From the IMG/VR virus record IMGVR_UViG_3300031565_000020, positions 758 to 64,757 of that record: a DNA stretch of 64,000 nucleotides. One strand, given 5' to 3'. The stretch's first letter is position 1. The number at the start of each line of letters is the position of its first letter. The DNA is from a virus (Duplodnaviria > Caudoviricetes). The notes under the pieces were generated by a model, which was not told where the DNA came from, did not search any database, and saw nothing but the letters and a program-made list of their open reading frames with translations. Both the position numbers and the translations under genes were made by a program. Below are positions 15,046 through 61,056 of this stretch, piece after piece.

Positions 15046-16536
15046 TTGGAAAATATGTGTACAGAGTTTGAAAACATTACAAATACAAACTTTTCAGAAG
15101 ATGGTGATAAAGATAGCAAAGCCGTAAAAGCCGCAAAGAATAAAATCTCAAACGGTATTATTGCAGGCAAAATTAAAAAGCCCGCAACGTGTAAAAAGTG
15201 CGGCAAAAACACAAAACTCGAAGCACACCATAACAAAGGGTATGACGAAAAAAACCAAACTTCAATCATATGGCTTTGTCCTACTTGCCACGTAGCTGCA
15301 CATAAGAAGCTTAACGCGTGTAAGAAAAAATCAAAAGACACAATCAATCGTATTGATGTATTCAACAACATTAATGAATATATGATTGAACCTTTTATGA
15401 TTGACCAGGAAACAGGCTTTTACAGTGGTGTTGCTGTTGTTACAAATACTGGTATATTCAATTATAGAATTAATGGTAAAACAGTAAGAGAACTTAGAAC
15501 GCCCGATGAGGTAGGCAGATCATCGAGCCTTGACTCACTGAAAATGATACCGATTACAAATGAACATCCAAAGGAATTTGTAACATCTGAAAATGCACAA
15601 AAATTAAGTATTGGTATGTCAGGTGAGATTGTAAATTTTGATAATACAGCTGTAAGTGTGCGCCTTACAATTACAGACAAAAAAGCGATTGAAGACATCA
15701 AAGCCGGCAAAGTGGCATTATCCTGTGGCTACAAAGCAACCACAGTTGATAATGGTGGTGGTTTTGCATTTGGCAATAATAGGTATGATGTCGAGCAAAC
15801 GGACATCATATACAATCACATTGCCCTGGTTGGTATGGGTCGTGCGGGTGATTTGGCAAGATTGAAATTCGATCGTGATGACGTAGGAATCAATGAAAGT
15901 ACTATTAATAGTACTGATAATATAGAAACTAATGAAAAAGGAGCAATAAACATGGCTACTGAGTTACAAACATTGAGAATTGACGGCGTTGACTATTCAG
16001 TTGACAAAGACGTAATCAAAGAAGTCAACCGATTAAACAAAGACAGCGTTGAAAAAGATACGATAATTGAAGCACTGAAAAAAGATAAAGATGTCTTACA
16101 GGCAAAAGCCGACACGCTTGACATTAAAGTCAAAGAGGCAGTTGAAATTATGAAAGCGGATGAAGGAAAATTCACTAATGAAGATGTGAAAGAAAGGATC
16201 GAATTATTCAAAATTGCCGACTCACTGAAAGTCGAATATACAGACAATGACAATAATGGCGCGATTAAAAAATTAATAATTAAAACCAAAAACGATAAAA
16301 TTAATCTTGATGCAAAATCGGATGATTATATCAATGCTGCGTTCGACATTCTCAAAGAAGACATCAAGAATGAACCGGCAAAAAAGAACGTACAAAAAGC
16401 GATGTTTGACAATATGCCAGGCGACAACGCTAGTAAAAAAGATACGCGAACAGCAAGAGAAAAATTTTGTGCTGACAATCAAGAGCGCGCTGAAAATTAT
16501 AAAGGCGCTGTAAAAAATACAGGAGGTAACGCATAA
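15046..16536 (+). CDS. DUF2213-type prohead protease/scaffold with N-terminal HNH-like domain
   Basis: C..CG...AHH..Y...WLC..CH N-terminus; PITNEHP, LSCGY, YNHIALV..GRAG; coiled-coil C-terminus; start may be ATG 15055. Confidence 0.85.
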   Translation: MENMCTEFENITNTNFSEDGDKDSKAVKAAKNKISNGIIAGKIKKPATCKKCGKNTKLEAHHNKGYDEKNQTSIIWLCPTCHVAAHKKLNACKKKSKDTINRIDVFNNINEYMIEPFMIDQETGFYSGVAVVTNTGIFNYRINGKTVRELRTPDEVGRSSSLDSLKMIPITNEHPKEFVTSENAQKLSIGMSGEIVNFDNTAVSVRLTITDKKAIEDIKAGKVALSCGYKATTVDNGGGFAFGNNRYDVEQTDIIYNHIALVGMGRAGDLARLKFDRDDVGINESTINSTDNIETNEKGAINMATELQTLRIDGVDYSVDKDVIKEVNRLNKDSVEKDTIIEALKKDKDVLQAKADTLDIKVKEAVEIMKADEGKFTNEDVKERIELFKIADSLKVEYTDNDNNGAIKKLIIKTKNDKINLDAKSDDYINAAFDILKEDIKNEPAKKNVQKAMFDNMPGDNASKKDTRTAREKFCADNQERAENYKGAVKNTGGNA

Positions 16537-31835: not shown

Positions 31836-33968
31836 ATGGCAATAAAACCATTAGATGATCTTACTTTTGCAACAGCATCAATAACAGATCCGGCTACCGG
31901 ACAGCCAAACAAGATAGTACCTAACGTAACTTATCAGACAAATGGGTGGGTGAGTTTTGATACAGCCCCTTTTTCTTGGTTTAATTACTTGTTTAACGGC
32001 TATTACACGTGGCAACAATATTTTGAAGCCACTACTGACGATATTTTACTAAATAATCTGACAATTGCAGGGAATAAAACTTTTTCAGGGAGTACTATAT
32101 TTCAAGCTAACATTAATGTAGACATTAATGTGTTTTCGGTTAACACAACGTCAAATTTAGTTGGCGTCAAAGCTGATTTGGCTGTGGTATCGCCGGGGGC
32201 CGACGGTCTAATTGCAGAAGGCATTTTTCCAGTTACTTCACGCCGTGACACAAGCACAGTTGGTTTCAGTGTATTACAGTCTTTTCAAATGAAAAACAGT
32301 AGCGGCGACTACACACCTTATGCTAATTTTCTGTCTGTTATCGATGATAACACCGCCGGAGCCGAGTGTGGTTCTTTTCACATACGCTGTGTGAGTGCGG
32401 GCAATATAAGCACCCCTCAATTTATTTTCAACGATACTGGAAATTTTACAGCAATTACAAGTATAACGATTAATGATACATTTATTAATGCTTCCGAAAT
32501 AGGGATTAATAAATTAACAACGGGCAACAGGACTGCAAAACTTGATTTGTATTCGGATGATACAAATCCTTTTGGTTTAGAAATTCTAAGAAGTAGTGGT
32601 GTAAATGGTACTACGCAGCTATTGCATCATGGTACTGGCAATCTAAGCTTTGAAACATTAGACACAAGTGCAATGAATTTTTCGACTGGAAGTACCAGCC
32701 GTGCTGTTATAGAGGCAAATGGTAATTTTGCATATAAAACAAATTTACTTTTCGTAGATTATGTTAATAGCCGAATCGGTATCAAAAAAACTCCAACGGT
32801 GCACAACCTGGAAGTGCTAACAAGCGCTGCTATTGGAAGCACTGTTGTAGCATCAAGCATGATTGGTATTAATCAATTAGGTACTGGTGATAGGGGCGCC
32901 TATATAGATTTTGTAGCAGAGGATACCAACCCAAATTCCGTAAGAATTATAAGAAATAGCGGAGTGAATGGTAGTTACAGCACAACTAATCAAGGCGACG
33001 GTCAAACGGTATATGAAAATGTTGGTATCGGATCACATAGATTTCGAAATAATGGCGCCGATTCATTATATGTAACTTCTGCAAATCAAATACAAGCAGT
33101 TGCGAATACCAATGCGACATCAAAAGACACCGGCGCCTTTGTGGTGACATTGGGCGGAATGGGAATTGAACAGGATGTATGGCTGGGTGGCAGCCTTAAT
33201 CATGCGAGTGCGCTGTTATTCAAGACGGGGGGAAATGAAGGCTTACGCCTTAGTAATAGTAAACTTAGTACATTAGGAGAACTTACTCCTGATTGCAGCC
33301 CTGGGGGACTTACTTTACAGCAAGGGCCTAACGATGGTTATATTTTAACATGTAAATCAACCGATGTTGCTCATGGTATGACAACAATAGCGGAAACAGA
33401 CACATATGCAACCTTTGACAAGTTCCAAGGAGGACAAGGGGGATTGCAAATTATAGGACTAAACGGAGGTACTGGAATTAGGGGTATCTCTATATCTAGT
33501 TACGCGCCCACAACAGATAATACTACTAGTGTGGCGGGAACTGGTCAAATCGAACTTGTCAGTTACTTAAAAACCGGAACAACCGGAGGAAGTTTAGCAA
33601 GTGACGCCAATTTACTTGCTATGCGTAATGCTGGACTAACTAGACACCTTTTTAAGGGTGATGGAGATATACGCACAAGTACAGGAGTTCTAAGTATATA
33701 TGATAACGAAAACGACATGTTATTAGTACACGCAGCAAGAAACGTGCTATCAGGGAATACCTCACCATTTAAGGATAATAAAGAGTTTAAAAAATACGCC
33801 ACAAGACTAAACGAATTGGGTATCATTGAAAATGGATTTGTAAGTCATCACAAAATGATGCAGCTCAACTTAGGCGCAATGGGGCAAGTTTGGAATATGA
33901 TTAAAGGTATGGCAAAAGAATTCAATATTTCAGAAAAAAAACTATTAACCTTTGCAAAACAATATTAA
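31836..33968 (+). CDS. tail fibre protein
   Basis: 710 aa Gly/Thr/Asn-rich; GW....P...FNYLF baseplate-attachment motif; internal repeat. Confidence 0.8.
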   Translation: MAIKPLDDLTFATASITDPATGQPNKIVPNVTYQTNGWVSFDTAPFSWFNYLFNGYYTWQQYFEATTDDILLNNLTIAGNKTFSGSTIFQANINVDINVFSVNTTSNLVGVKADLAVVSPGADGLIAEGIFPVTSRRDTSTVGFSVLQSFQMKNSSGDYTPYANFLSVIDDNTAGAECGSFHIRCVSAGNISTPQFIFNDTGNFTAITSITINDTFINASEIGINKLTTGNRTAKLDLYSDDTNPFGLEILRSSGVNGTTQLLHHGTGNLSFETLDTSAMNFSTGSTSRAVIEANGNFAYKTNLLFVDYVNSRIGIKKTPTVHNLEVLTSAAIGSTVVASSMIGINQLGTGDRGAYIDFVAEDTNPNSVRIIRNSGVNGSYSTTNQGDGQTVYENVGIGSHRFRNNGADSLYVTSANQIQAVANTNATSKDTGAFVVTLGGMGIEQDVWLGGSLNHASALLFKTGGNEGLRLSNSKLSTLGELTPDCSPGGLTLQQGPNDGYILTCKSTDVAHGMTTIAETDTYATFDKFQGGQGGLQIIGLNGGTGIRGISISSYAPTTDNTTSVAGTGQIELVSYLKTGTTGGSLASDANLLAMRNAGLTRHLFKGDGDIRTSTGVLSIYDNENDMLLVHAARNVLSGNTSPFKDNKEFKKYATRLNELGIIENGFVSHHKMMQLNLGAMGQVWNMIKGMAKEFNISEKKLLTFAKQY

Positions 33969-34870: not shown

Positions 34871-35040
34871 TCAAGAGCCGGGTGTTTTACTCGTATTTTT
34901 CAAAATAACCCTTTCTTTTAAACTCTTTCCGTACCCGTACCAACTATTCCCCCTCCCATCTTCTAAACATTCTAATATGCAAGCGTCTCTCATTAATCGG
35001 TCATACTCTTTTTTGTAATTGTAATCATTTCATTATTCAT
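34871..35040 (-). pseudogene. frameshifted small gene after the LRR array
   Basis: MNNEMITITKK then, in another frame across an A6 run, EYDRLMRDACILECLE; resembles 43184..43312. Confidence 0.4.
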
Positions 35041-35697
35041 TTATTTTCTCCTTTGTTTTTCTGTTTTATTCCCATATTTCCAGCCGACAGAACATCCATT
35101 ATTTATATTCCAATTCACAACATCAAGATTGGCTTGCCCCTGGGGAGTGCCTGGTTTGATTTCCATATTGTTGTTATTTAAATAAAGGCGTGTAAGTCCC
35201 ATAAGTCCATTAAGCGGACTTATGGGACTTATTGAGTTACCGTCTAAATCAAGGTCCGTAAGTCCACTTAATGGGCTGATGTCGCTTATTGAATTGCTGT
35301 ATAAATAAAGGTATTCACGCTCTGTAAGTCCTCTTAATGGGCTGAGGTCACTTATTGAGTTGTATGATAAATCAAGATATGTAAGCGCTGTAAGCCCACT
35401 TAATGGGCTTATGTCACTTATTTTGTTGTCGTCTAAATCAAGGGATGTAAGCGCTGTAAGCCCGCTTAATGGGTTTATGTCGCTTATTGAGTTGTTATAT
35501 AAATTAAGGTCTGTAAGCGTTGTGCAGTATTCTAAACCGGCAATATTTGAAATCTTTTTCATACTAGCACTTAATGATTTTATCAATACCAAATCAAAAG
35601 CCAAAATCTTTCCAGTTGGCTTGCCAATCTTTAAACGGATGACAGATTCTAAATTTGGATCAGGAAAATTCACAACCATATTATTTTCATTTTTCAT
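35041..35697 (-). CDS. internalin-type LRR protein 7 (5 internal modules, one shortened by 3 aa)
   Basis: VNFPDPNLE N-cap; LxxLxLxxNxIxDISPLxxLxx repeats; MEIKPGT..GQ.NLD C-cap. Confidence 0.92.
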   Translation of the reverse strand: MKNENNMVVNFPDPNLESVIRLKIGKPTGKILAFDLVLIKSLSASMKKISNIAGLEYCTTLTDLNLYNNSISDINPLSGLTALTSLDLDDNKISDISPLSGLTALTYLDLSYNSISDLSPLRGLTEREYLYLYSNSISDISPLSGLTDLDLDGNSISPISPLNGLMGLTRLYLNNNNMEIKPGTPQGQANLDVVNWNINNGCSVGWKYGNKTEKQRRK

Positions 35698-36554
35698 TTA
35701 TTTTCTCCTCTGATTTCCGTTTTATTTCCATATTTCCAGTTAACGTCACACTCATTATCCAGATGCCTGTTAACAATATCAAGGTTAGTTTGTCCCTGGG
35801 TGGTGCCTGGTTTGATTTCCATGTCGTTGTTCTGTAAATAAAGGTATTTAAGCGCTGTAAGCCTGTTTAATGGTGTGATGTCACTTATTGAGTTGTTAGC
35901 TAAATGAAGGTATGTAAGAGCTGTAAGGCCGCTTAATGGGCTGATATCAGTTATTGAGTTGTTATCTAAACCAAGGATTTCAAGCGCTGTAAGCCTGCTT
36001 AATGGGCTTACGTCAGTTATTGAGTTGTATGATAAACAAAGTTCTGTAAGCCCTGTAAGCCTGCTTAATGTGCTTATGTCAGTTATTGAGTTACCGTCTA
36101 AATAAAGGTCTTCAAGTTCTGCAAGTCCACTTAATGGGCTGATATCACTTATTGAGTTGTTATCTAAATGAAGATATGTAAGCGCTGTAAGTCCGCTTAA
36201 TGGACTGATGTCACTTATTAAGTTATAGTATAAATAAAGTTCTGTAAGTGCTGTAAGCCTGCTTAATGAGCTTATGTCGGTTATTGAGGTGTTGTGTAAA
36301 TCAAGGGATGTAAGCTCTGTAAGCTCTCTTATTGGGCTTAGATCACTTATTGAGTTGTTATCTAAACCAAGGTATGTAAGAGCTGTACAACATTCTAAAC
36401 CGGTAATATTTGAAATATCTTTATTGCTAGCACTTAATGATTTTATTCCGAACAAATCACAAGCCAAAATCTCCCCAATTGGCTTGTTGATCTCTAAACG
36501 GATGATAGATTCTAAATTTGGATCAGGAAAATTCACAACCATATTATTTTTCAT
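35694..36554 (-). CDS. internalin-type LRR protein 6 (8 internal modules)
   Basis: Same caps; 22-aa repeats. Confidence 0.92.
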   Translation of the reverse strand: MKNNMVVNFPDPNLESIIRLEINKPIGEILACDLFGIKSLSASNKDISNITGLECCTALTYLGLDNNSISDLSPIRELTELTSLDLHNTSITDISSLSRLTALTELYLYYNLISDISPLSGLTALTYLHLDNNSISDISPLSGLAELEDLYLDGNSITDISTLSRLTGLTELCLSYNSITDVSPLSRLTALEILGLDNNSITDISPLSGLTALTYLHLANNSISDITPLNRLTALKYLYLQNNDMEIKPGTTQGQTNLDIVNRHLDNECDVNWKYGNKTEIRGENK

Positions 36555-37086
36555 TTATTTCTCCTTTGTTTTCAGTTTTATTCCCATATTTCCAGTTAAC
36601 ATAACAACCATTATCTATATGCCAATTAACAACATCAAGATTAGTCTGCCCTTGGGTAGTGTCTGGTTTGATTTCCATGTCGTTGTAATTTAAATCAAGG
36701 TATGTAAGAGCTGTAAGCCCACTTAATGGACTTATGTCACTTATTTTGTTGTTATCTAAATAAAGCTTTGTAAGCTTTATAAGTCCACTTAATGGACTTA
36801 TGTCAGTTATTAAGTTACCGTCTAAATAAAGTTCTGTAAGCTTTATAAGTCCATTAAGTGGACTTAGGTCACTTATTGAGTTGTCATTTAAACTAAGGTA
36901 TATAAGCGCTGTGCAACATTCTAAACCGTTAATATTTGAAATATCCTTAAAACCAGCAATTAATGATTTTATCACGATCAAATCAGATTCTAAAATATCC
37001 CCAGTTGGTTTATTGATCTTAAAACGGATGATAGCTTCTAAATTTGGATCAGGGAAATTCACAGCCATATTATTTTTATTTTTCAT
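36544..37086 (-). CDS. internalin-type LRR protein 5 (3 internal modules)
   Basis: Same caps; 22-aa repeats. Confidence 0.92.
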   Translation of the reverse strand: MKNKNNMAVNFPDPNLEAIIRFKINKPTGDILESDLIVIKSLIAGFKDISNINGLECCTALIYLSLNDNSISDLSPLNGLIKLTELYLDGNLITDISPLSGLIKLTKLYLDNNKISDISPLSGLTALTYLDLNYNDMEIKPDTTQGQTNLDVVNWHIDNGCYVNWKYGNKTENKGEINEK

Positions 37087-37816
37087 TTATTTCTCCTTTG
37101 TTTTCCGTTTTATTTCCATATTTCCAGCCGACATAACACCCATTATTTAGATGCCAATTAACAACATCAAGATTTATTTGCCCTTGGGGAGTGCCTGGTT
37201 TAATTTCCATGTCGTTGTTATCTAAATCAAGGGATGTAAGCGCTGTAAGCCCACTTAATGGGCTGATATCAGTTATTGAGTTGTTAGATAAACCAAGGTG
37301 TTTAAGCGCTGTAAGCCCACTTAATGTGCTGATATCAACTATTTCGTTCATGTCTAAATCAAGGAATGTAAGCCCTGTAAGGCTGCTTAATGGTGTTAGG
37401 TCAGTTATTTTGTTGCCGGATAAATCAAGGGATGCAAGCCCTTTAAGGCCGCTTAAAGGGCTTATGTCGCTTATTAAGGTGACAGATAAATCAAGGGATG
37501 TAAGCTCTGTAAGCCCTCTTAATGGGCTGATGTCACTTATTGAGTTATCAGATAAATCAAGGCCTGTAAGAGCTGTAAGCCTGCTTAATGGGCTGATGTC
37601 GCTTATTGAGTTGCCGTATAAATAAAGGGATGTAAGCGCTGTACAGTACTCTAAACCGGTAATATCAGAAATATCTTTATTGCTAGCACCTAATGATTTT
37701 ATTTTGACCAACTCAGATGATAGGATATCCCCTGTTGGTTTGTTGATCTTAAAACGGATGACATCTTCAAGATTTGGATCAGGAAAATTCACACCCTTAT
37801 TATTTTTATTTTTCAT
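37076..37816 (-). CDS. internalin-type LRR protein 4 (6 internal modules)
   Basis: Same caps; 22-aa repeats. Confidence 0.92.
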   Translation of the reverse strand: MKNKNNKGVNFPDPNLEDVIRFKINKPTGDILSSELVKIKSLGASNKDISDITGLEYCTALTSLYLYGNSISDISPLSRLTALTGLDLSDNSISDISPLRGLTELTSLDLSVTLISDISPLSGLKGLASLDLSGNKITDLTPLSSLTGLTFLDLDMNEIVDISTLSGLTALKHLGLSNNSITDISPLSGLTALTSLDLDNNDMEIKPGTPQGQINLDVVNWHLNNGCYVGWKYGNKTENKGEINEK

Positions 37817-38672
37817 TTATTTCTCCTTTGATTTCTGTTTTATTCCCATATTTCCAGTTAACATAACATCCGTCATTCAGATGCCAATTAACAATATCAA
37901 GATTAGTTTGTCCCTGGGTGGTGTCTGGTTTGATTTCCATGTCGTTGTTAGATAAATCAAGGTATGTAAGCTTTGTAAGTTCGCTTAGTGGACTTATGTC
38001 ACTTATTGAGTTGCCGTCTAAATAAAGTTCTGTAAGCTTTATAAGTCCACTTAATGGACTGAGGTCACTGATTGAGTTGACATTTAAACTAAGGTATATA
38101 AGCTTTATAAGTCCACTTAATGGACTTATGTCACTTATTGAGTTGTCGCATAAACCAAGGCGTGTAAGCGCTGTAAGCCCGTTTAATGGGGTGATATCAG
38201 TTATTGAGTTGCTATTAAAACTAAGTGATGTAAGCGCTGTAAGCCTGCTTAATGGTGTTAGGTTAGTTATTTTGTTGCCGGCTAAACCAAGAAATGTAAG
38301 CTTTGTAAGCCCTCTTAATGGGCTTATGTCTCTTATTGAGTTGTTGTCTAAACCAAGGCGTGTAAGTCCTGTAAGTTCACTTAATGGGCTTAGGTCACTG
38401 ATTACGTTGTATGATAAACTAAGGTATATAAGCGCTGTAAGTTCGCTTAATGGACTGATGTCACTTATTGAGTTGCTATTTAAACTAAGGTCTGTAAGAG
38501 CTGTACAGTACTCTAAACCAGTTATATTTGAAATACCCTTAAAACCAGCAATTAATGATTTTATCCCGACCAAATCAGATGATAGAATATCCCCTTTTGG
38601 CTTGTTGATCTCTAACCGGATGACAGCTTCAAGATTTAGATCAGGAAAATTCACAACCATATTATTTTTCAT
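37806..38672 (-). CDS. internalin-type LRR protein 3 (8 internal modules)
   Basis: Same caps; 22-aa repeats. Confidence 0.92.
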   Translation of the reverse strand: MKNNMVVNFPDLNLEAVIRLEINKPKGDILSSDLVGIKSLIAGFKGISNITGLEYCTALTDLSLNSNSISDISPLSELTALIYLSLSYNVISDLSPLSELTGLTRLGLDNNSIRDISPLRGLTKLTFLGLAGNKITNLTPLSRLTALTSLSFNSNSITDITPLNGLTALTRLGLCDNSISDISPLSGLIKLIYLSLNVNSISDLSPLSGLIKLTELYLDGNSISDISPLSELTKLTYLDLSNNDMEIKPDTTQGQTNLDIVNWHLNDGCYVNWKYGNKTEIKGEINEK

Positions 38673-39266
38673 TTATTTTCTCCTCTGATTTTCTGTTTTA
38701 TTTCCATGTTTCCAGTTAACGTCACACCCATTATTCAGATGCCAATTAATAACATCAAGATTAGTTTGTCCCTGGGTAGTGCCTGGTTTTATTTCCATGT
38801 TGTTGTTATATAAATCAAGTTCTGTAAGAGCTGTAAGTTCACTTAATGGGCTGATGTCACTTATTTTGTTGTCATATAAACGAAGGAATGTAAGCGTTGT
38901 AAGTCCTCTTAATGGACTGATGTCACTGATTGAGTTGCTATCTAAATAAAGCTTTGTAAGCTTTGTAAGCCCACTTAATGGACTGATGTCACTGATTGAG
39001 TTGCTATCTAAATAAAGCTTTGTAAGCTTTGTAAGCCCACTTAACGGACTGATATTGGTTATTGGGTTATCTTCTAAATCAAGTTCTGTAAGCGCTGTAC
39101 AGTATTCTAAGCCGGTAATATCAGAAATATCAGACGAACTAGCATATAATTCAGTTATCACGATCAAATCAGATTCTAAAATATCCCCAGTTGGTTTATT
39201 GATCTTAAAACGAATGATATCTTCTAGATTTTTATCAGGGAAATTCACAACCATATTATTTTTCAT
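38673..39266 (-). CDS. internalin-type LRR protein 2 (4 internal modules)
   Basis: Same caps; contains an exact 66-bp tandem duplication. Confidence 0.92.
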   Translation of the reverse strand: MKNNMVVNFPDKNLEDIIRFKINKPTGDILESDLIVITELYASSSDISDITGLEYCTALTELDLEDNPITNISPLSGLTKLTKLYLDSNSISDISPLSGLTKLTKLYLDSNSISDISPLRGLTTLTFLRLYDNKISDISPLSELTALTELDLYNNNMEIKPGTTQGQTNLDVINWHLNNGCDVNWKHGNKTENQRRK

Positions 39267-39866
39267 TTATTTTCTCCTTTGTTTTTCCGTTTTATTCCCA
39301 TGTTTCCAGCCGACATAACATCCGTTATCCAGATGCCAATTAACAATATCAAGATTAGTCTGCCCCGGGGCAGTGCCTGGTTTGATTTCCATGTCGTTGT
39401 AATTTAAAACAAGGGATGTAAGCTTTGTAAGTCCACTAAGCGAACTTATGTCGGTTATTTTGTTGTAGTCTAAATAAAGGTATATAAGCCCTGTAAGCCT
39501 GCTTAATGTGCTTATGTCACTGATTGAGTTGCCGTCTAAATAAAGTTCTGTAAGCTTTATAAGCCCTCTTAATGGGTTGATGTCACTTATTGAGTTGTCA
39601 TTTAAACTAAGGTATATAAGCTCTGTAAGTTCGCTTAATGGGCTAATATCAGTTATTTTGTTGTTATATAAGTAAAGGTCTGTAAGAGCTGTACAGTACT
39701 CTAAACCAGTTATATTTGAAATCTTTTTATTGCTAGCACGTAATGATTTTATTCCGACCAAATCAGAAGCTAAAATATCCCCAGTTGGTTTATTGATCTT
39801 TAAACGGATGACAGCTTCTAGATTTTTATCAGGGAAATTCACAACCATATTATTTTCATTTTTCAT
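39267..39866 (-). CDS. internalin-type LRR protein 1 (4 internal modules)
   Basis: Start reassigned to ATG 39866 (GGGGAG RBS, MKNENNMVVNFPD as in paralogues) rather than 40061. Confidence 0.92.
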   Translation of the reverse strand: MKNENNMVVNFPDKNLEAVIRLKINKPTGDILASDLVGIKSLRASNKKISNITGLEYCTALTDLYLYNNKITDISPLSELTELIYLSLNDNSISDINPLRGLIKLTELYLDGNSISDISTLSRLTGLIYLYLDYNKITDISSLSGLTKLTSLVLNYNDMEIKPGTAPGQTNLDIVNWHLDNGCYVGWKHGNKTEKQRRK

Positions 39867-40671
39867 TTGTTTCTCCCCACTCTTCCCTTTTACCATATTG
39901 TTTACACACATACCACCACCAATGATTGGTTTTGTCAATGCTACACGCATACCGCAATTTATGTTTTTGCATCTTTTTTTCCTCTGTACCGTCTTTTGTG
40001 TACATAGTCCTAAACGGGTTACAACAATAACCGGCAATACAGTTCTTACATGTGTCATCACTTTGTTTTATGACATACTGCTGATTACTAATCAAATCAA
40101 CACAAGTCTTTTCTTTGTATTCTTTTTTCCATATATACCAAGCATAGACTTGCATACCTGTTATATATTTTCCGTCATCCCTAATTTCATCGCTTAACAT
40201 AGGGTAACGGGTGAATGTCTCTATGTTTGTGAGGTAAAACCCATTAAGCCCTGTAAATATTTTTTCGGAAAACCTTTGTTGTCCGGAAAAATACGATTGC
40301 GGTAGTAAAAAAGCAAATGCTTTTTGCGCAACAAGGCCTGCTTGCTGGATAAAAGCGCCAGCGTGTATAAACGGCGGATTACCTATTATGTAAGCTGGTT
40401 TTTCTGCAACAAAATCAAAAGGTTTTAAGAAATCAAATTCAGGATACTGAATTGCCTTAACAGTCTTAAAATATTGCTGCAACACCTTTACCATCGCACC
40501 CTTACCCGCTGCTGGCTCCAATACTGGCAGCGTAAAATCAAAAAAATCTTTATACTTATCTATAAATTGTCTTGTCATAGAATAAGGTGTCTGGTAATCA
40601 TCATCCTTATTGCGTTGACCCTGGTTAACCTTACTATAACATTTACCCGTTTTATTTTTTTCTTTTTCCAT
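39856..40671 (-). CDS. amino-type DNA methyltransferase (probably N6-adenine)
   Basis: D.Y.TP, VLEPAAGKG (SAM motif I), NPPF (motif IV), YAW..W; Cys-rich C-terminal tail. Confidence 0.85.
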   Translation of the reverse strand: MEKEKNKTGKCYSKVNQGQRNKDDDYQTPYSMTRQFIDKYKDFFDFTLPVLEPAAGKGAMVKVLQQYFKTVKAIQYPEFDFLKPFDFVAEKPAYIIGNPPFIHAGAFIQQAGLVAQKAFAFLLPQSYFSGQQRFSEKIFTGLNGFYLTNIETFTRYPMLSDEIRDDGKYITGMQVYAWYIWKKEYKEKTCVDLISNQQYVIKQSDDTCKNCIAGYCCNPFRTMYTKDGTEEKKMQKHKLRYACSIDKTNHWWWYVCKQYGKREEWGETNEK

Positions 40672-40788: not shown

Positions 40789-41136
40789 TTAATAATCTCC
40801 CTTTTCCTTATTCTCTTTTGCCGTCTTAATATCCGCACGTATACCATCACGCCACGGTGTCTTAACACCTTTGACCCGATGTTCTTTTTTCATACTATAA
40901 TGATTATGTTCAACTCCTGTAAATTCTTTTCCTTTTTCTGTTATATACCAAAAACCGCCTTTTTTGTGCACTCTGTAACCGGTTCCATACAACACCTGTT
41001 TCAGCGTGACTTTTTTTGTTTTGATGCTGTCGGGCCATTCCATATATATGTTAATTGATTTGACTCCGTGTACACTAACCTTACAAGCCCTTAAAAGTAT
41101 ATCGGCATCTTTTTGTAATTGTTCTGATATTTTCAT
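40789..41136 (-). CDS. basic hypothetical protein
   Basis: 115 aa, ATGA overlap with upstream gene. Confidence 0.65.
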   Translation of the reverse strand: MKISEQLQKDADILLRACKVSVHGVKSINIYMEWPDSIKTKKVTLKQVLYGTGYRVHKKGGFWYITEKGKEFTGVEHNHYSMKKEHRVKGVKTPWRDGIRADIKTAKENKEKGDY

Positions 41137-42179
41137 TCCAAAATCCCCCTTAATATTATATGCAGGCCCACAACAGGCAGAAAATCAATAAGTATCGCAA
41201 TAATTACGAAAATAATCAACTGTAATATATTCGCATCGAGATTAAACATACTTTGAAAGTGCTCAAAAGGACTTTTAATCTCGATTTTTTCAAACTGGAT
41301 TTTTTTTGCTTCAATCATTGTGGCCTTTTCATTTTCAAGTCTGTCAATATCCTTTTCATATTTTTGAATTTGTAAAACCTTTTTCCAGATCCGATCATAC
41401 AATTTCTTATACTCGTTTGAATCGCTTTCATATTTTTCCATACGCGTTTTTAAGTCTTCCCTCATTGAATTTCGATCGGTAATTTCATTATAACAGAAAT
41501 CTATTTTTTTCTGCAAAGCGGCATATAAGTCAATGTCATTCTGGTTATTATTGTTTTGAAATCTAATATTATTCTCTTTTGCATCTTTCACAGCCGATTG
41601 ACCTGTGATCGACGTAAAAACGCTAAACATTGTAATGACTAACCATATTGCCAGGTATGTTATCCGTTTTTGTTTGATGCCAAAGTAAAAACACACAATA
41701 CCAGCAAGAGTCACACTCCCGGAAAATGAGTAGGCAAGATGTTTGCTTTCAATAAAAAACACAAAAAACTCTTTGGCATACAAAACAGTCAAAATAAGCG
41801 GTGTTACTATGGTTGCAAGCACTAACACTAAAAACACAGTTTTCTTTAATTTTACCCCCTTTTTGTTCGTCTCCTGTGGTGTTTTTACAGGGTCTTTAAT
41901 TTGCGGTTTTTCTTGTGTTTCTTCCTGTATTTCTTTCTGTATTTCTTCCGGAGTCTTTAAAACTTTATAATGTGCCACATTTCTTCCTAATGCTTTTCTT
42001 TTTATAAGCGCTTTTAATAGGTCTTGAAGTGTGCCCATATCACACTTCATGTACTCAACCATTACAGGGAAAGTCGGAAATGTGTCACGACTTTTTTTTA
42101 ATCCCTGACTTTTTTTATCTTTTACATAATCAGAAATAAACTGGTATAAAAGCTTTTGTTGTTTTTCAAACTCTGTCAT
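41133..42179 (-). CDS. membrane protein with coiled coil and possible N-terminal winged helix
   Basis: Three hydrophobic helices, coiled coil, C-terminal helix; AAAGGAG RBS. Confidence 0.75.
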   Translation of the reverse strand: MTEFEKQQKLLYQFISDYVKDKKSQGLKKSRDTFPTFPVMVEYMKCDMGTLQDLLKALIKRKALGRNVAHYKVLKTPEEIQKEIQEETQEKPQIKDPVKTPQETNKKGVKLKKTVFLVLVLATIVTPLILTVLYAKEFFVFFIESKHLAYSFSGSVTLAGIVCFYFGIKQKRITYLAIWLVITMFSVFTSITGQSAVKDAKENNIRFQNNNNQNDIDLYAALQKKIDFCYNEITDRNSMREDLKTRMEKYESDSNEYKKLYDRIWKKVLQIQKYEKDIDRLENEKATMIEAKKIQFEKIEIKSPFEHFQSMFNLDANILQLIIFVIIAILIDFLPVVGLHIILRGILE

Positions 42180-46289: not shown

Positions 46290-46573
46290 TTTGAGCTCCT
46301 ATTTTTTGTTTTTATATTATTACCATATCCATAGATTTTTGTCAAGTAATTTGTATTCTTGTAATCAATTGATGTACAAAACTGTAACTAAAAGTATTGA
46401 TATGTTGTGTAATACGAGAGGTCAATTATAACCAAAATTATACAAAAGTGTAACGCATAATGAATGAAAATGTTTAAAATATAAGAAATATGTTTATAAA
46501 CTTTGTAGAATCAAAAGTATAAAACATACAAGACTACTACATAAATGTATAGTAAAAATAGTTAAAATATATG

Positions 46574-46624
46574 TTGACAGCTTTAACCTATTATAGTAGA
46601 CTCTTTTAACCTATTTAGGTTAAA
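46574..46624 (+). promoter_or_regulatory. promoter with overlapping operator-like palindrome
   Basis: TTGACA-17nt-TAGACT; TTTAACCTA half-site in spacer and TTTAACCTA-TT-TAGGTTAAA at 46605-46624. Confidence 0.55.
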
Positions 46625-46729
46625 GTAATAAGCATATATGGTAAACGTCATTAATCTATATAGTAAAAACCATGTACTATTATTTATAGTTTTTATAAGA
46701 AAAATCTGAGATTATAGGAGAAAAATAGC

Positions 46730-48133
46730 ATGAACGATATTGAAACTGTGGCAAGTGCTGACACGTGGTATTTGTATGGCGATGGATTGCTTTTGGAATT
46801 AGGCATGGATACCACTTTACTTTTGTCACGAATAATAAATATATACACCCAATTGAATTTTACAACCGATTACTTTGAGTGTAGTGTTGTATCTATAAGA
46901 AGAGAGATTGAAATGTCTGCTCATAGACAACGGATTTCAATAGAAAAACTAACAAAGTTGGGAATAATAAAGACTAAAAATAGCGATTTGCCTGCAACAC
47001 GAAAAGTAAAACTTTGTAACACAAACATTATCAATACTGTAAAGGATGTTTATGGTGGTGAAGAGGGGGGTGGTTTTGAGCAAAACAAAAGTGTCGAATT
47101 TGAGTTGATTTTTCCAAAAACACAGTTATATATTACATATATAACATTATATTCTCTTTATTATTTATTAATAATAAATAATAGAGTTATCAAAAATGAT
47201 AACTCCTATTTGTCCACTTTAAATTTTTTTTCAAATAGGAAAATACTTTCTTTTGAAGAGAGAGAAAAAAAAACAAAAGAAAAAAACAATGAACTAAAAA
47301 ACAAAATTTTATCCGATGAAAATTTCTTGGAAATTATAAGAACATTTTCAGATTTTCCGGCCCCGGCAGTTACACACAATGTGAACAAAATAACGAACAC
47401 ACTTGCAGAAGCGTACAGTCTATACCAGCACTTGCTTAACGGTACATTTTTCGATAATTGTAAACAAATCACAGAGCCGTGGATCGTTGCCAATAAAGGC
47501 GATTGGAGTAAATTAAAGGAAAAAAAATGGAAACACAAGAAAATTATGAAAGTACTGAAAGAGGCCGGAAAACCATATTTACCAGACTATTACCCATTTT
47601 CAAAAGATGACAAAAAAAAGATTTTGCCGAAGAGCTTGCCACAATTATTTTATAATCCCTTCGTAAAAAAATGCCCGTCTTCTTTTATTCGTGCCTATTT
47701 ACAGCCGCCGAAACTATCTCCGGTACAAGAAATCACAGACAAGTACCCGGGAATTACTACTGAAATTTCGCAGATGTGCGACGTAACACCTCGGATAATT
47801 ATACGTGCTATCACATATTTAGAGCCCTTCTACAATGAAATTTGTAACAAGTCGATTATTTTTGAAGATGGTAAAAAATACACCCGGTTATCCCTTGACA
47901 TGGAGTTTTCGCGCCATTTGGGAACGTTTGTAAAGTTTTTAGGCGTGTATGTCGAGTGGTTAGGGTCTTTATCGGAAAAATGGCGCAACCAGCAATCAGT
48001 AAGGCTCGCGGGTGTTACGCGTGGTTGGTTCGACGAGTACTTGAAAAAAAATTATGATATTATTTTAGAGCCTAATGACAGCTATTTACAACGGTTGGCG
48101 CGAGATTTGAAAAGAATGAAATCCGGTTATTGA
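46730..48133 (+). CDS. putative replication initiator-like DNA-binding protein
   Basis: N-terminal winged-helix-like pattern (I..E..MS...Q...I.KL..LGII......P), AT-rich linker; divergent from helicase. Confidence 0.55.
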   Translation: MNDIETVASADTWYLYGDGLLLELGMDTTLLLSRIINIYTQLNFTTDYFECSVVSIRREIEMSAHRQRISIEKLTKLGIIKTKNSDLPATRKVKLCNTNIINTVKDVYGGEEGGGFEQNKSVEFELIFPKTQLYITYITLYSLYYLLIINNRVIKNDNSYLSTLNFFSNRKILSFEEREKKTKEKNNELKNKILSDENFLEIIRTFSDFPAPAVTHNVNKITNTLAEAYSLYQHLLNGTFFDNCKQITEPWIVANKGDWSKLKEKKWKHKKIMKVLKEAGKPYLPDYYPFSKDDKKKILPKSLPQLFYNPFVKKCPSSFIRAYLQPPKLSPVQEITDKYPGITTEISQMCDVTPRIIIRAITYLEPFYNEICNKSIIFEDGKKYTRLSLDMEFSRHLGTFVKFLGVYVEWLGSLSEKWRNQQSVRLAGVTRGWFDEYLKKNYDIILEPNDSYLQRLARDLKRMKSGY

Positions 48134-57176: not shown

Positions 57177-57446
57177 ATGAATACAGAAGACCATGAATTT
57201 ATTAATGGCCTTTGCAATCTTGCAGGGGCCATTGCATATTTGAAAAAAAACAAAAAGCCCATGAATTCCGGGACATTCAAAAACTGGTTTCAGCAAATTG
57301 GATGGTCAGACCAAATAGGATATATGCGAATATACAAAAAAAGTGATTTGGATAAAATAATTAAAGGTGTTGTAAAATATGGAGAATGGAAAGCCGAAGA
57401 CCACAGGAAAAAAATTAAAAGTAACAAAGATAGAAAAAATAATTAA
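57177..57446 (+). CDS. small putative DNA-binding protein
   Basis: 89 aa; A..YL...T...W...RIYKKSDLD pattern recalls MerR/excisionase-like HTH. Confidence 0.5.
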   Translation: MNTEDHEFINGLCNLAGAIAYLKKNKKPMNSGTFKNWFQQIGWSDQIGYMRIYKKSDLDKIIKGVVKYGEWKAEDHRKKIKSNKDRKNN

Positions 57447-58437
57447 AAAAGCAATGAGGCGAAAGCCATTAGTTGAATTTATCACAACCGGCTGTGATAT
57501 GTATGATCTGGTGTTGGGCGGGGGTTACATTCAGGGTGGGCTCATAAACATCGTAGGTGATAAATCAACATGCAAGTCATTACTGGCTACTGAGTGTGTA
57601 GCGGCCAACAGGGATGTGCCGCACCAATATTTTGATGAGGAATCCGGCGCAAAATTTGACACACAAGCTGTATACGGTATGGACATATATGCCGAAGTGG
57701 TGCCAGAAACATTAGAAGAATTTGCATATTCGACCTTCCCTGTTTTTTATAGAGACAAACAACAGTCACTAACTGTTGTAGACAGTTATGATGCATTACA
57801 AAGCAAAGCTGCACGGATACGACAGCAGGAAGAGGAACAGCGGTACAAAAAAAATCAAGACCCTGATCCGGAAAATAAAGGTTCTTACAAACTTGAAAAG
57901 CCCAAATTACTGAAAGAATTTCTGGGCTCCCATATTGTGGCTATGCAAAAGAAAAAAGCGACGTTAATTTTTATATCCCAGTTGATAGCGAACCTGGACA
58001 ATCTTATGTACAAACCTAAGCACAAGAGAACGGGTGGTAAAGCACTCGATTTCTATTCAAGTCAAATAATCTGGCTAAGAGAGGTAGAAAAGCACTTCAA
58101 AAAAGGGCGGGCAATAGGCGTTACTGTCGAGATCCGAACCGAAAAATGTAGAAGCGCGACACCTTTTCGAAGTTGTTATATACAAGTATTGTTTGGCTAT
58201 GGTGTTGATAATGTCACAACTAATCTTTTATTTCTGTATGACATGTATACAGCGAAAGAGGGGAAATTAAAAAAAAGCGCAACTGTTGTATGGGATGGTG
58301 TGGAGATGACATTAGATCAGGCTGTCGAGCATATCGAAGTGAATAACCAGGAAGCGGAATTAAAAAAAAGAATCGTTGAAAAGTGGCATAAGATAGAAAA
58401 CGAGATTGGACCTGGCAAGCGGAAAAGGAAATATTAA
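57379..58437 (+). CDS. RecA/UvsX-like recombinase
   Basis: TG....D..LGGG...G, GDKSTCKS, VVDS, LIFISQ, GGKAL.FYSS. Confidence 0.9.
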   Translation: MENGKPKTTGKKLKVTKIEKIIKKAMRRKPLVEFITTGCDMYDLVLGGGYIQGGLINIVGDKSTCKSLLATECVAANRDVPHQYFDEESGAKFDTQAVYGMDIYAEVVPETLEEFAYSTFPVFYRDKQQSLTVVDSYDALQSKAARIRQQEEEQRYKKNQDPDPENKGSYKLEKPKLLKEFLGSHIVAMQKKKATLIFISQLIANLDNLMYKPKHKRTGGKALDFYSSQIIWLREVEKHFKKGRAIGVTVEIRTEKCRSATPFRSCYIQVLFGYGVDNVTTNLLFLYDMYTAKEGKLKKSATVVWDGVEMTLDQAVEHIEVNNQEAELKKRIVEKWHKIENEIGPGKRKRKY

Positions 58438-58438
58438 A

Positions 58439-59891: not shown

Positions 59892-60022
59892 AATTAGCAA
59901 TAGTAGGATCAAGAGGTTTCTACAACGTTAACGATTATAACAAGGTGCAGGATGCTATACATAGATTTTTTATTGATACAGCTATCAAGTTACAGAAACT
60001 GGTAATAATAATGCCAATATAA
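59888..60022 (+). pseudogene. internally deleted SLOG/YspA-like gene
   Basis: 44 aa MKLAIVGSRGF...DY joined to I..A.KL.K.V.I end; central GGA.G.D region absent. Confidence 0.5.
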
Positions 60023-60034
60023 AGGAAGGCAAAA

Positions 60035-60823: not shown

Positions 60824-61056
60824 ATGACATTGTTGTAGCGTATACAGCACTTACAAAAAGAATAGAAAGAAATAATACAAAGCAGGCCGAATTAGCAGGG
60901 CAGCTAAAAGCACTACAAAAAGAGTTAACCGGTGCAGGGCTTACGGCATTTGAATCGGTCCCAGAAGAGTTGAAAATATTGGAAGCGAAGAAACAAAAAA
61001 TCGCAAAAAAATTAAATAAGATACTTGACAAAATAGGTAGAGTATTGAATGATTGA
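60820..61056 (+). CDS. small coiled-coil protein
   Basis: 78 aa heptad-rich, between Mre11 and Rad50-C. Confidence 0.65.
   Translation: MNDIVVAYTALTKRIERNNTKQAELAGQLKALQKELTGAGLTAFESVPEELKILEAKKQKIAKKLNKILDKIGRVLND

What the first reader, a model, noticed from the sequence alone, without database searches (positions are those of the whole stretch)
35041..39866. Phage-encoded variable LRR repertoire: seven genes with constant caps and variable module stacks
Seen: seven tandem, translationally coupled genes share an N-cap (VNFPD.NLE..IR..I.KP.G.IL..(D/E)L) and C-cap (MEIKP.T..GQ.NLD..N.....C.V.WK.GNKTE) but carry 4,4,8,6,3,8,5 internal 22-aa modules in transcription order. None has a signal peptide, TM helix, anchor or enzymatic domain. 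They end a minus-strand block that starts at an early-type promoter, outside the virion operon. Established: internalin/SDS22-type LRRs bind proteins via the concave face, and constant caps with variable modules is the architecture of lamprey VLRs. Inference: a diversifying set of cytoplasmic binders, e.g. against host defence proteins or competing phages. I know of no described phage system like this but cannot search.
Basis: partly seen in the sequence, partly recalled or inferred. Interest (0 to 1): 0.92.

Follow-up and report, generated by a model that had tools for sequence, protein, structure and literature searches.

The report
Shuffled LRR binder genes in phage
An uncultured soil phage carries seven back-to-back genes for small leucine-rich-repeat binding proteins that are reshuffled between sister phages and sit between two counter-defence-type genes, so they look like an inherited set of binders aimed at the host cell, but their targets are unknown.

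Summary
Window 35041-39866 (minus strand) holds seven translationally coupled genes. Each has a bacterial-type N-cap, a conserved first repeat, 4,4,8,6,3,8,5 internal 22-aa internalin/SDS22-class repeats, and a rare C-cap. None has a signal peptide, TM segment or enzyme domain.

Findings added here:
- A sibling phage (L017, backbone 95-98% identical) has only three such genes in the same slot. They are module-level mosaics of the window's genes: blocks with 0 synonymous changes lie next to modules whose best match is another paralogue.
- The array lies between a DNA methyltransferase and a T7 gp5.9-like RecBCD-inhibitor ORF. That ORF is frameshifted in the window and fused to the last LRR gene in L017.
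- The C-cap is very rare (9 of 1.84 billion representative proteins). Outside this phage lineage it occurs only on exported or membrane cellular proteins.
- Variation concentrates on four concave-face positions rich in Tyr, Asp, Ser and Asn. A formal test for positive selection was inconclusive.

Best reading: cytoplasmic, early/middle-expressed binders of host (probably defence) proteins, diversified by recombination. The function is inferred, not shown.

Closest published analogue: the secreted tandem LRR locus of Flavobacterium psychrophilum. Earlier notes of this scan report comparable phage LRR arrays on other DNA, so this is a new variant, not a unique system.

The parts
39856..40671 (-). 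DNA methyltransferase gene directly upstream. Its stop overlaps the g1 start by 11 nt, and its tail (…GETNEK) carries the same junction motif as the LRR genes.
   Evidence: phrog_799 DNA methyltransferase, E 5.1e-26. No Pfam hit. 97% identical orthologues in L011 and L017.
39267..39866 (-). LRR gene g1 (199 aa): N-cap, conserved LRR1, 4 internal modules, half repeat, C-cap.
38673..39266 (-). LRR gene g2 (197 aa): 4 internal modules, two of them identical.
   Evidence: The P0004 variant has one module fewer.
38908..39039 (.). Exact 2 x 66-bp tandem duplication (one LRR module) inside g2.
   Evidence: The two halves are identical. Unitig contigs cannot resolve its copy number.
37806..38672 (-). 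LRR gene g3 (288 aa): 8 internal modules. Modules 1-6 are shared with L017 gene A, with 0 synonymous and 2 non-synonymous changes.
37076..37816 (-). LRR gene g4 (246 aa): 6 internal modules. Modules 5-6 and the C-cap are 99-100% identical to L017 gene B; the other modules are diverged.
36544..37086 (-). LRR gene g5 (180 aa): 3 internal modules. This is the protein that was modelled.
   Evidence: AF2 pLDDT 89.3, pTM 0.84. Foldseek top hits are InlA/InlB, rmsd 0.8-1.5 A over 130-141 residues.
35694..36554 (-). LRR gene g6 (286 aa): 8 internal modules.
35041..35697 (-). LRR gene g7 (218 aa): 5 internal modules. One is shortened to 19 aa and one has a framework Leu replaced by Arg.
34871..35040 (-). 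Small ORF of the T7 gp5.9 (RecBCD inhibitor) family, coupled to g7 by the same TAA-ATG junction. In the window it is cut after 15 codons by an A-run one base shorter than in L017 (35008-35016, sequence A AAA AAG). In L017 it is fused in frame to the last LRR gene.
   Evidence: Alignment and frames. On the intact L017 copy: phrog_6234 E 2.7e-8 and Pfam PF25708 27.8 bits against a cut-off of 24.5. The short A-run is present in contigs of X1-X3; the longer one in X4.
46316..46345 (-). Sigma-70-like promoter match (TTGACA-18-AATAAT) upstream of the helicase gene that opens the minus-strand block.
   Evidence: Consensus match only; such sites are not enriched over shuffles.
31836..33968 (+). Tail-fibre-like gene convergent on the array. 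Its distal roughly 600 aa cannot be aligned with the L017 orthologue. This is context: the second hypervariable locus between the sibling phages.
   Evidence: No Pfam or PHROG family. It is called a fibre from its position after the baseplate genes, which is inference.

Best explanation
Shown:
- A lineage-specific multigene family of seven capped, signal-less LRR proteins of the 22-residue internalin/SDS22 class sits in a roughly 65-kb virulent-looking myovirus from soil metagenomes.
- The genes form one translationally coupled string: DNA methyltransferase, seven LRR genes, then a gp5.9-like RecBCD-inhibitor ORF. The string lies at the end of the helicase/primase (replication) block, on the strand opposite the virion genes.
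- Four positions per module (5, 7, 9, 10 of the 22) carry nearly all the variation. They lie on and just after the beta-strand of the concave face and are rich in Tyr, Asp, Ser and Asn.
- Gene number and module content differ between sibling phages through recombination at module boundaries.

Inferred:
- The proteins are made early or mid-infection and stay in the infected cell's cytoplasm.
- Each binds a different host protein through its concave face. Components of host anti-phage defence are the most likely targets, because of the neighbouring genes.
- They act stoichiometrically as blockers or decoys, since they have no catalytic domain.
- The phage's own recombination machinery (RecA-like protein, PDDEXK nuclease, SbcCD-like pair), acting on 66-bp modules and the shared gene junctions, generates new combinations. 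Selection by varying hosts then retains some of them.
For: - Architecture and coupling.
- LRR class: Pfam LRR_4. PDB profile hits to the Roco LRR domain (1e-120), InlA (about 1e-103) and SDS22 (about 1e-39). AF2 model with pLDDT 89.3, and Foldseek hits to InlA/InlB.
- Variation: entropy is 2.45-2.95 bits at positions 5, 7, 9, 10, against 0.3 or less at most framework positions. Asp, Tyr, Ser and Asn make up 106 of the 148 residues at these positions. DSSP strands fall at positions 5-7 of each module.
- Maintenance: caps have dS 0.39-0.40 and dN 0.13.
- Turnover: L017 has 3 genes against 7 in a backbone that is 95-98% identical.
- Mosaicism. The g3/L017-A block of 132 codons has 0 synonymous changes where 4.6-15.3 are expected from backbone pS (Poisson P 0.0099 to 2e-7). 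Neighbouring modules carry 8-18 changes.
- Context: methyltransferase. The gp5.9 family scores above Pfam's cut-off and matches phrog_6234 'host RecBCD nuclease inhibitor'.
- Recombination genes: RecA-like protein, PDDEXK nuclease and SbcCD-like proteins.
- Localisation: no leader or TM segment.
Against: - No expression, localisation or binding datum exists, and the host is unknown.
- All 7 non-phage proteins I read that carry this C-cap have lipoprotein-like leaders or TM segments. The domain's ancestral workplace is therefore outside the cell.
- The formal selection test is inconclusive. At the four concave codons dN is 0.83 and local dS 0.995, a ratio of 0.83. Only against framework dS (0.315) does dN look elevated.
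- Guilt by association is weak. It rests on two neighbours, and one of them (the gp5.9-like ORF) is frameshifted in the window.
- No PADLOC family and no known anti-defence family matches the LRR genes.
- The array lies next to the tail-fibre locus, which also differs between the siblings, so a host-range role at the cell surface fits the same pattern.
Confidence: 0.45

Rival explanations
1. The proteins work outside the cell. They are released at lysis and bind extracellular or surface ligands, such as host envelope receptors on debris or neighbouring cells, matrix polymers, or other soil organisms. This would repeat the job of their exported cellular homologues.
For: All 7 cellular proteins read that share the rare C-cap carry lipoprotein-type leaders or TM segments. 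The closest full-length homologues are secreted bacterial LRR proteins. The published F. psychrophilum tandem LRR locus is a surface-protein locus (PMC10392669).
Against: None of the seven has a leader or anchor. The genes are coupled to replication and counter-defence genes rather than to lysis or virion genes.
Confidence: 0.2
2. The proteins are host-range accessories of the virion. They would be adaptor or adhesin proteins that attach to the tail fibre or baseplate and extend receptor recognition.
For: The array is convergent on, and 1.1 kb from, the tail-fibre module. The fibre's distal part and the array are the two loci that differ most between the window and L017. LRR/beta-helix domains are predicted on fibre proteins of phage Goslar (preprint 10.64898/2026.04.21.720040, passages).
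Against: The array is on the opposite strand from all virion genes and in the replication block. The proteins have no virion-attachment module, only caps and repeats. No PHROG structural family matched; the only hits were to two unknown-function families, at E 8e-6 and 4e-7.
Confidence: 0.12
3. The proteins are weapons against competing mobile elements. The binders would recognise proteins of co-infecting phages or satellites, giving superinfection exclusion or a phage-encoded defence.
For: The same features apply as for the best explanation: a variable binder set, early operon position and rapid turnover.
Against: No PADLOC model matched any of the 9 proteins tested. No effector domain is present. 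Nothing specific points to this reading.
Confidence: 0.1
4. This is not a functional repertoire. It would be an assembly artefact, or a neutral or selfish expansion of a captured bacterial gene that is now decaying.
For: The copy number of the exact 66-bp duplicate cannot be verified, and another assembly has one copy. g7 has a shortened module and a framework Leu-to-Arg change. The downstream gp5.9-like ORF is frameshifted.
Against: All seven ORFs are intact with conserved ribosome-binding sites. The caps are under purifying selection. Unique pieces and two gene junctions are identical in three runs, at depths like the flanks. Sibling lineages keep LRR genes in the same slot.
Confidence: 0.05

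Closest known systems
Tandem cell-surface LRR locus of Flavobacterium psychrophilum (Duchaud 2007 and Castillo 2015 as cited in Altae-Tran et al. 2020, PMC10392669; passages read; supplements not seen)
   Same: Both are tandem arrays of paralogous genes. Each gene has constant ends and a variable number of roughly 22-residue LRRs (2-14 there, 3-8 internal here). Hypervariable positions lie on one face. Gene number and repeat content differ between strains while the flanks are conserved. Both show signatures of recombination.
   Different: That locus is chromosomal in a bacterium. Its proteins have a secretion peptide and a T9SS C-terminal signal, and it contains many broken gene fragments. Here the array is in a phage, has no leader or sorting signal and no fragments between genes, and lies between counter-defence-type genes. 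No sequence relationship was tested, and no named Flavobacterium protein appeared among the 120 best listed of 554 hits.
Listeria internalins (InlA, InlB, InlH) and SDS22/PPP1R7, the 22-residue LRR class
   Same: They share repeat length and consensus, Pfam LRR_4, and strong profile hits (InlA about 1e-103, SDS22 about 1e-39). The fold matches at rmsd 0.8-1.5 A over 130-141 residues.
   Different: The phage proteins have no signal peptide, Internalin_N cap, Ig-like inter-repeat domain or wall anchor. The N-cap is the FPDxNLE type shared with other bacterial secreted LRR proteins and with Pfam LRR_EndoS. The C-cap is a rare helix-plus-strand cap that no PDB chain covers.
Lamprey/hagfish variable lymphocyte receptors (recalled; also mentioned in PMC10392669)
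   Same: Both have constant N and C caps around a variable number of LRR modules, with diversity on the concave face. In both, module exchange creates new receptors.
   Different: VLR genes are assembled somatically from cassettes. Here complete genes are inherited, and shuffling is evolutionary, between paralogues and between phage lineages. The caps are not the Cys-rich LRRNT/LRRCT type, and there is no stalk or membrane anchor. The resemblance is in working logic only; this is not a family member.
LRR-only or LRR-targeting bacterial effectors delivered into host cytosol (Yersinia YopM; LRR domains of IpaH/SspH) (recalled; YopM-InlB chimeras appear among PDB hits)
   Same: These are signal-less LRR solenoids that act inside another organism's cytoplasm by binding its proteins. 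This is the proposed mode of action here.
   Different: They belong to a different LRR subclass (20-residue repeats), are delivered by T3SS, and target eukaryotic proteins. They do not occur as tandem variable arrays.
Phage LRR gene arrays noted earlier in this scan (e1-5991906, e1-5855445, e1-5712050, e1-5732812, e1-5325743; AI notes, unchecked)
   Same: These notes describe tandem arrays of small, signal-less LRR genes in uncultured phages. They report conserved scaffolds, hypervariable faces and mosaic recombination.
   Different: They involve other repeat classes (20-residue FlrP-like, BspA/LRR_5, 21-residue InlJ-like), mostly in jumbo phages or megaphages. This case is a 65-kb phage with 22-residue internalin-class repeats, a distinct rare C-cap, and a methyltransferase/gp5.9 context.

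Membership tests
Internalin/SDS22-class LRR domain (Pfam LRR_4, PF12799) | 22-residue repeat with consensus LxxLxLxxNxIxDIxPLxxLxx | tested here: met
   37 full internal modules of 22 aa. The framework positions Leu3, Leu6, Leu8, Asn11, Ile13, Asp15, Leu19 and Leu22 are each kept in 35-37 of the 37 modules.
Internalin/SDS22-class LRR domain (Pfam LRR_4, PF12799) | Score above the curated Pfam threshold | tested here: met
   All 7 of 7 proteins score 71.5-161.7 bits against a cut-off of 27.
Internalin/SDS22-class LRR domain (Pfam LRR_4, PF12799) | Right-handed LRR solenoid superposable on solved members | tested here: met
   AF2 model of g5 with pLDDT 89.3. Foldseek matches to InlA/InlB with TM(query) 0.66-0.72 and rmsd 0.8-1.5 A. 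This compares a predicted model, not an experimental structure.
Listeria-type internalin (protein family in the strict sense) | Sec signal peptide, Internalin_N cap, Ig-like LRR_adjacent domain, and an LPXTG or GW anchor | tested here: not met
   Pfam lists only LRR families for all 7 proteins. The N-terminal 20 residues are hydrophilic and no hydrophobic segment is present.
Variable lymphocyte receptor (VLR) | Cys-rich LRRNT and LRRCT caps | tested here: not met
   No LRRNT or LRRCT Pfam hit. There are 2-5 Cys per protein, and the two conserved ones lie far apart, in LRR1 and in the C-cap.
Variable lymphocyte receptor (VLR) | Somatic assembly of an incomplete germline gene from flanking cassettes | tested here: not met
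   All seven are complete ORFs, each with its own RBS, and there are no partial cassettes between them. Within-population rearrangement could not be assessed from unitig contigs.
F. psychrophilum-type tandem variable LRR locus | Tandem paralogues with variable repeat number and strain-to-strain differences in gene number despite conserved flanks | tested here: met
   7 genes with 3-8 internal modules. The sibling L017 has 3 genes, with flanks 95-98% identical.
F. psychrophilum-type tandem variable LRR locus | [quoted passage not shown] | tested here: not met
   There is no leader. The proteins end 6-9 residues after the C-cap, and no sorting-domain Pfam hit was found.
T7 gp5.9 RecBCD-inhibitor family (PF25708), for the small ORF after the array | Score above Pfam's curated cut-off over most of the model | tested here: met
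   The L017 copy scores 27.8 bits against a cut-off of 24.5, covering model positions 4-44 of 46. It also matches phrog_6234 at E 2.7e-8.
T7 gp5.9 RecBCD-inhibitor family (PF25708), for the small ORF after the array | Intact stand-alone ORF, and actual inhibition of RecBCD | tested here: not met
   The window copy stops after 15 codons unless a -1 shift occurs at A AAA AAG. The L017 copy is fused to the last LRR gene. Activity cannot be tested with these tools.
Diversity-generating retroelement target | Reverse transcriptase plus a template/variable repeat pair with adenine-specific changes | tested here: inconclusive
   No reverse transcriptase was found among the 36 window ORFs scanned with Pfam or the 20 scanned with PHROGs. 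Not every ORF was scanned. Repeat families within 34900-40100 are the LRR genes themselves.

The most novel reading that the evidence does not exclude
The phage keeps a heritable, recombination-shuffled repertoire of antibody-like LRR inhibitors. Each paralogue would neutralise a different host immune sensor or effector, and the set would be re-dealt among co-circulating phages as cassettes. This would be a viral mirror of the LRR-based recognition used by NLRs and VLRs, and a new structural class of anti-defence protein.
Probability: 0.25. Interest if true: 0.85.

Novelty: new variant of a known kind. Interest (0 to 1): 0.62.

Why it matters
Known phage counter-defence proteins are mostly small, idiosyncratic single-target inhibitors. 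A modular binder scaffold that phages can re-target by swapping 22-residue modules would be a general way to keep pace with diverse host defences. It would also explain why LRR gene arrays keep turning up in uncultured phages.

This example is compact: seven genes in a 65-kb genome. It has a sibling genome that shows shuffling in action, and its neighbours (a methyltransferase and a gp5.9-like ORF) give a testable hypothesis about its role. The scaffold may also be of practical interest: it is small, acidic, has only two conserved Cys, and is predicted with high confidence.

Tried and rejected
I reached the sibling contig through the search for related loci instead.

IMG/VR scans:
- Cap patterns, P0002, the 125-aa neighbour and the DUF2612 neighbour found nothing.
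- The N-cap alignment found only the G001 fragment again.
- Remote relatives that share the methyltransferase (G003, G004, and L012 in G002) have no LRR genes; other cargo follows the methyltransferase.

Other database searches:
- GenBank phages gave no DNA match.
- tblastn with g5 hit 24 of 50,697 records. 22 are multi-contig 'Listeria phage LM' records and 2 are Enterococcus. None covers 80% or more of the query. I judge the Listeria hits to be internalin-bearing host contigs, which is inference.
- A genome-contig scan with the C-cap alignment A3 matched 13 pattern stretches but no relative.

Host identification failed:
- Cluster names gave no taxa.
- The Atlas gave only generic bacterial LRR clusters.
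- The nearest cultured phages share 34% or less MCP identity and 24% or less DNA polymerase identity.

Sequencing runs:
- No RNA holder was listed.
- Read laying returned only Logan contigs that break at the repeats. Gene order across the whole array, the copy number of the 66-bp duplicate and within-sample variants therefore could not be checked.
- Joints with sides of 20-22 letters were disregarded.
- Low or zero cover of parts of the array in X3 and X4 is not interpreted.

Analyses that settled nothing:
- The positive-selection test on paralogous modules was inconclusive.
- The 2 non-synonymous against 0 synonymous changes in the shared g3/L017-A block are too few to test.
- PADLOC found no family for any of the 9 proteins tested.
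- Complex prediction was not used, because no partner hypothesis was specific enough.

Literature:
- Six full-text searches found no paper describing tandem LRR gene arrays in a phage.
- PMC10945359 reports a vibriophage tail-module protein with only a 10%-probability HHpred LRR match (passages).
- PMC12592517 concerns eukaryotic viruses (passages).
- 10.1101/2024.06.14.598830 and PMC12750041 mention LRR only in unrelated contexts (passages).
- Matsushima et al. 2021 (PubMed 33052487) is not held, so its content on LRRs in dsDNA viruses was not seen.
- Supplements are closed and were not requested.

Full report
**What the window is.** The window is bases 758-64757 of a 64,757-bp IMG/VR virus record that CheckV rates as complete. 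The record encodes a portal, a MuF-like head protein, a prohead protease, a major capsid protein, a tail sheath, a tape measure and baseplate proteins on the plus strand. Helicase, primase and DNA methyltransferase genes lie on a minus-strand block. DnaB, DNA polymerase, a clamp-loader-like ATPase, a RecA-like protein, a PDDEXK nuclease, SbcCD-like proteins and terminase lie further on. No integrase was found among the ORFs scanned. The nearest cultured phages share only 34% or less capsid identity. Three coded soil-metagenome runs hold the region. The host is unknown.

- Seven minus-strand genes fill 35041-39866.
- Every start codon is preceded by AGGAG/GGAG inside the previous gene's tail. 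It abuts or overlaps the previous stop by 0, 4 or 11 nt. The same junction links the methyltransferase to g1 and links g7 to a following small ORF.
- Each protein has a 34-36-aa N-cap (VNFPDxNLExxIRxxIxKPxGxILxx[D/E]L) and a conserved first repeat. Then come 4, 4, 8, 6, 3, 8 and 5 further 22-aa modules, a half repeat, and a 41-44-aa C-cap beginning MEIKP.
- Pfam sees only LRR families.
- A crude hydropathy scan finds no leader or TM segment. The maximum is 1.24, against 2.98 and 1.92 for two TM-bearing neighbours.
- Two caveats on the counts. One g7 module is 19 aa. One g2 module is an exact 66-bp duplicate that is absent from P0004, the g2 allele on a 64,693-bp contig from another assembly. 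With short-read assemblies I cannot tell a real polymorphism from collapse of the repeat.

**It is not an artefact.**
- Logan contigs of runs X1-X3 contain unique pieces of the array with zero differences, including the g6/g7 and g2/g3 junctions. Their depths are similar to the flanks.
- An IMG/VR fragment (G001) ends 186 bp into the first LRR gene.
- The metagenome contig L017 has LRR genes in the same slot.

**Class and structure.**
- A profile of the seven proteins hits the Chlorobium Roco LRR domain (1e-120), internalin A (about 1e-103), internalins B, H, C2 and F, and SDS22 (about 1e-39). No PDB chain aligns beyond the start of the C-cap.
- The AlphaFold2 model of g5 is confident (pLDDT 89.3, pTM 0.84). 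It superposes on InlA/InlB at 0.8-1.5 A.
- In the model the C-cap is a helix (residues 144-158) followed by a short strand.
- The N-cap is the FPDxNLE type, also seen in many secreted bacterial LRR proteins and in Pfam LRR_EndoS.

**The C-cap is rare.** A C-cap profile searched against 1.84 billion representative proteins gave 19 hits at E 0.001 or better. Nine of the 19 cover the cap.
- Two of the nine are from this phage lineage (P0004, P0002).
- The other seven are cellular. I read all seven. Judged by eye, five have lipoprotein-like leaders (P0121, P0122, P0126, P0127, P0136). P0125 has several TM segments. P0133 has a hydrophobic, Cys-ending N-terminal stretch.
- P0121 strings three complete cap-LRR-cap units in one polypeptide.
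- The cap pattern was not found in 185,579 species-representative genomes.
- A cap HMM run on all fetched loci hit only the window (7 genes) and L017 (3 genes).

**Where the variation lies.**
- Across 37 full internal modules, entropy is 2.45-2.95 bits at positions 5, 7, 9 and 10, and 2.0 bits at position 2.
- Entropy is 0.3 bits or less at framework positions 3, 6, 8, 11, 13, 15, 19 and 22. It is 0.7-1.6 bits at the convex-side positions.
- DSSP strands in the model fall at positions 5-7 of each module. Positions 5 and 7 therefore face the concave surface, and 9 and 10 follow in the ascending loop. By established LRR knowledge this is the ligand face of internalins and VLRs.
- The 148 residues at these four positions are 22% Asp, 22% Tyr, 16% Ser, 11% Asn and 9% Gly. 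Leu, Ile and Lys are almost absent. This composition is paratope-like rather than random for a 35% GC genome.
- The caps evolve under purifying selection among paralogues (dS 0.39-0.40, dN 0.13), so all seven genes appear to be maintained.
- The formal test for positive selection is inconclusive. dN at the four concave codons (0.83) exceeds framework dS (0.315) but not the noisy local dS (0.995).

**Relatives show turnover and shuffling.**
- L017 aligns to the window at 94.7-98.4% identity over the replication and structural flanks. Backbone genes show pooled dS 0.18 and dN/dS 0.13. The gene order is the same.
- L017 has three LRR genes where the window has seven.
- The module map gives these best matches:
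  - Modules 1-6 of L017 gene A equal g3 modules 1-6 (98-100% DNA identity). Modules 8-9 best match g1 modules 3-4 (92-95%).
  - Gene B shares modules 5-6 and the C-cap with g4 (99-100%). Its other modules best match g2, g3 or g6, or diverged g4 modules (85-92%).
  - Gene C has one module 97% identical to g2 module 2, and otherwise matches at 85% or less.
- In the 132-codon g3/A block there are 0 synonymous and 2 non-synonymous differences. Backbone divergence predicts 4.6-15.3 synonymous differences (P 0.0099 to 2e-7). Adjacent modules carry 8-18 differences.
- This pattern indicates recent exchange of module blocks between lineages and between paralogues, with breakpoints at module boundaries. 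The phage's own recombination genes offer a plausible engine, which is inference.
- G001 carries the L017-type first gene (100% over 194 nt), and run X4 holds an L017-like variant.
- The distal part of the adjacent tail-fibre-like gene is also unalignable between the two phages.

**Context.**
- Upstream and coupled to g1 is a DNA methyltransferase (phrog_799, E 5e-26).
- Downstream and coupled to g7 is a small ORF. Its intact L017 copy (52 aa) passes Pfam's threshold for the T7 gp5.9 RecBCD-inhibitor family (27.8 against 24.5 bits). It also matches phrog_6234 'host RecBCD nuclease inhibitor' (E 2.7e-8).
- In the window lineage an A-run one base shorter truncates this ORF after 15 codons. The site reads A AAA AAG in the phase of a classical -1 slippery heptamer, and a -1 shift would restore the L017 protein. 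Contigs of X1-X3 confirm the short allele.
- In L017 the stop of the last LRR gene is lost, so the small ORF is fused to it (P0002, 257 aa).
- Both neighbours therefore belong to gene types that phages use against host nucleases. That is my reason for favouring an intracellular, anti-host role. It remains guilt by association.
- A sigma-70-like site (11 of 12) lies upstream of the helicase gene at the head of the block, but such sites are not enriched over shuffles. No terminator-like site was predicted on the minus strand within the array.

**Mechanism, with steps marked.**
- Shown: the architecture, the fold class, the location of the variability, maintenance by selection, differences in gene number, the mosaic exchange, and the identity of the neighbours.
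- Inferred: co-transcription with the replication and methyltransferase genes; cytoplasmic localisation; stoichiometric binding of host proteins through the concave face; different targets for different paralogues; and recombination followed by selection as the source of diversity.
- I put this composite at 0.45. Rivals are an extracellular role after lysis (0.2), a virion or host-range accessory (0.12), action against competing elements (0.1), and a non-functional array or artefact (0.05).

**Comparison with what is known.**
- The fold and repeat class are those of internalins and SDS22. The defining accessory parts of internalins are absent, so this is not an internalin.
- The genetic architecture matches the published F. 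psychrophilum tandem LRR locus (PMC10392669, passages), except that those proteins are secreted surface proteins of a bacterium.
- The VLR analogy is one of logic only.
- Six literature searches found no described phage array of this kind. The only phage LRR mentions were predicted LRR/beta-helix domains on Goslar fibre proteins and a weak HHpred hit in a vibriophage.
- This scan's earlier notes report 31 findings in at least 25 genomes on phage LRR arrays of other repeat classes (unchecked). The theme has therefore been found before on other DNA.
- I rate this a new variant of a known kind. It is notable for its small size, its rare C-cap, the direct sibling evidence of module shuffling, and its position between a methyltransferase and a gp5.9-like gene.

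Noticed in passing
window 34871-35040 (minus); L017 10616-10771: A gp5.9-family (RecBCD inhibitor) small ORF follows the array. In the window it is interrupted at A AAA AAG (35008-35016), a sequence in the phase of a classical -1 slippery site. A -1 shift would restore the full protein seen in L017, where the ORF is instead fused to the last LRR gene. Whether this is a pseudogene, phase variation or programmed frameshifting is open.
   Followed up: partly
window 31836-33968 (+) vs L017 11692-13773: The tail-fibre-like protein keeps only about its first 80 residues between the two sibling phages. The rest cannot be aligned at DNA level, and the L017 version is built of internal repeats (…GFSDN[ND][AV]RN[ID]G…). 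This second hypervariable locus lies next to the LRR array.
   Followed up: partly
protein P0121 (394 aa, metagenomic, lipoprotein-like leader): A cellular protein strings three complete N-cap/LRR/C-cap units of this rare family in one polypeptide. It is the fused counterpart of the phage's separate tandem genes.
   Followed up: no
window 15046-16536 (+): The prohead protease ORF (phrog_530) carries an N-terminal stretch that matches HNH/endonuclease PHROGs (phrog_2340 at residues 23-91, phrog_5200 at residues 48-119).
   Followed up: partly
window 35360-39318 (+ strand ORFs): Long antisense ORFs of 87-203 aa run opposite the LRR genes (for example 38077-38688). They are mirror images of the repeats, and their matches to the LRR query contain stops. 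I treat them as non-coding by-products.
   Followed up: partly
window 57379-61654 (+): The phage encodes its own recombination set: a RecA-like protein, a PDDEXK nuclease, and an SbcC/SbcD-like ATPase plus phosphoesterase. These could drive the exchanges between modules.
   Followed up: no
window 46577-47107 vs L017 1392-1918: About 530 bp between two 98%-identical backbone segments gave no alignment piece of 250 bp or more between the siblings. The stretch overlaps the start of the unknown 467-aa ORF at 46730-48133 and the divergent promoter region.
   Followed up: no
window 41133-42179 (minus): A 348-aa protein of unknown family lies within the same minus-strand block. It has strongly hydrophobic segments (maximum hydropathy 2.98) and a coiled-coil-like middle, and is nearly identical in L017. 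It could be a membrane-acting early protein.
   Followed up: no
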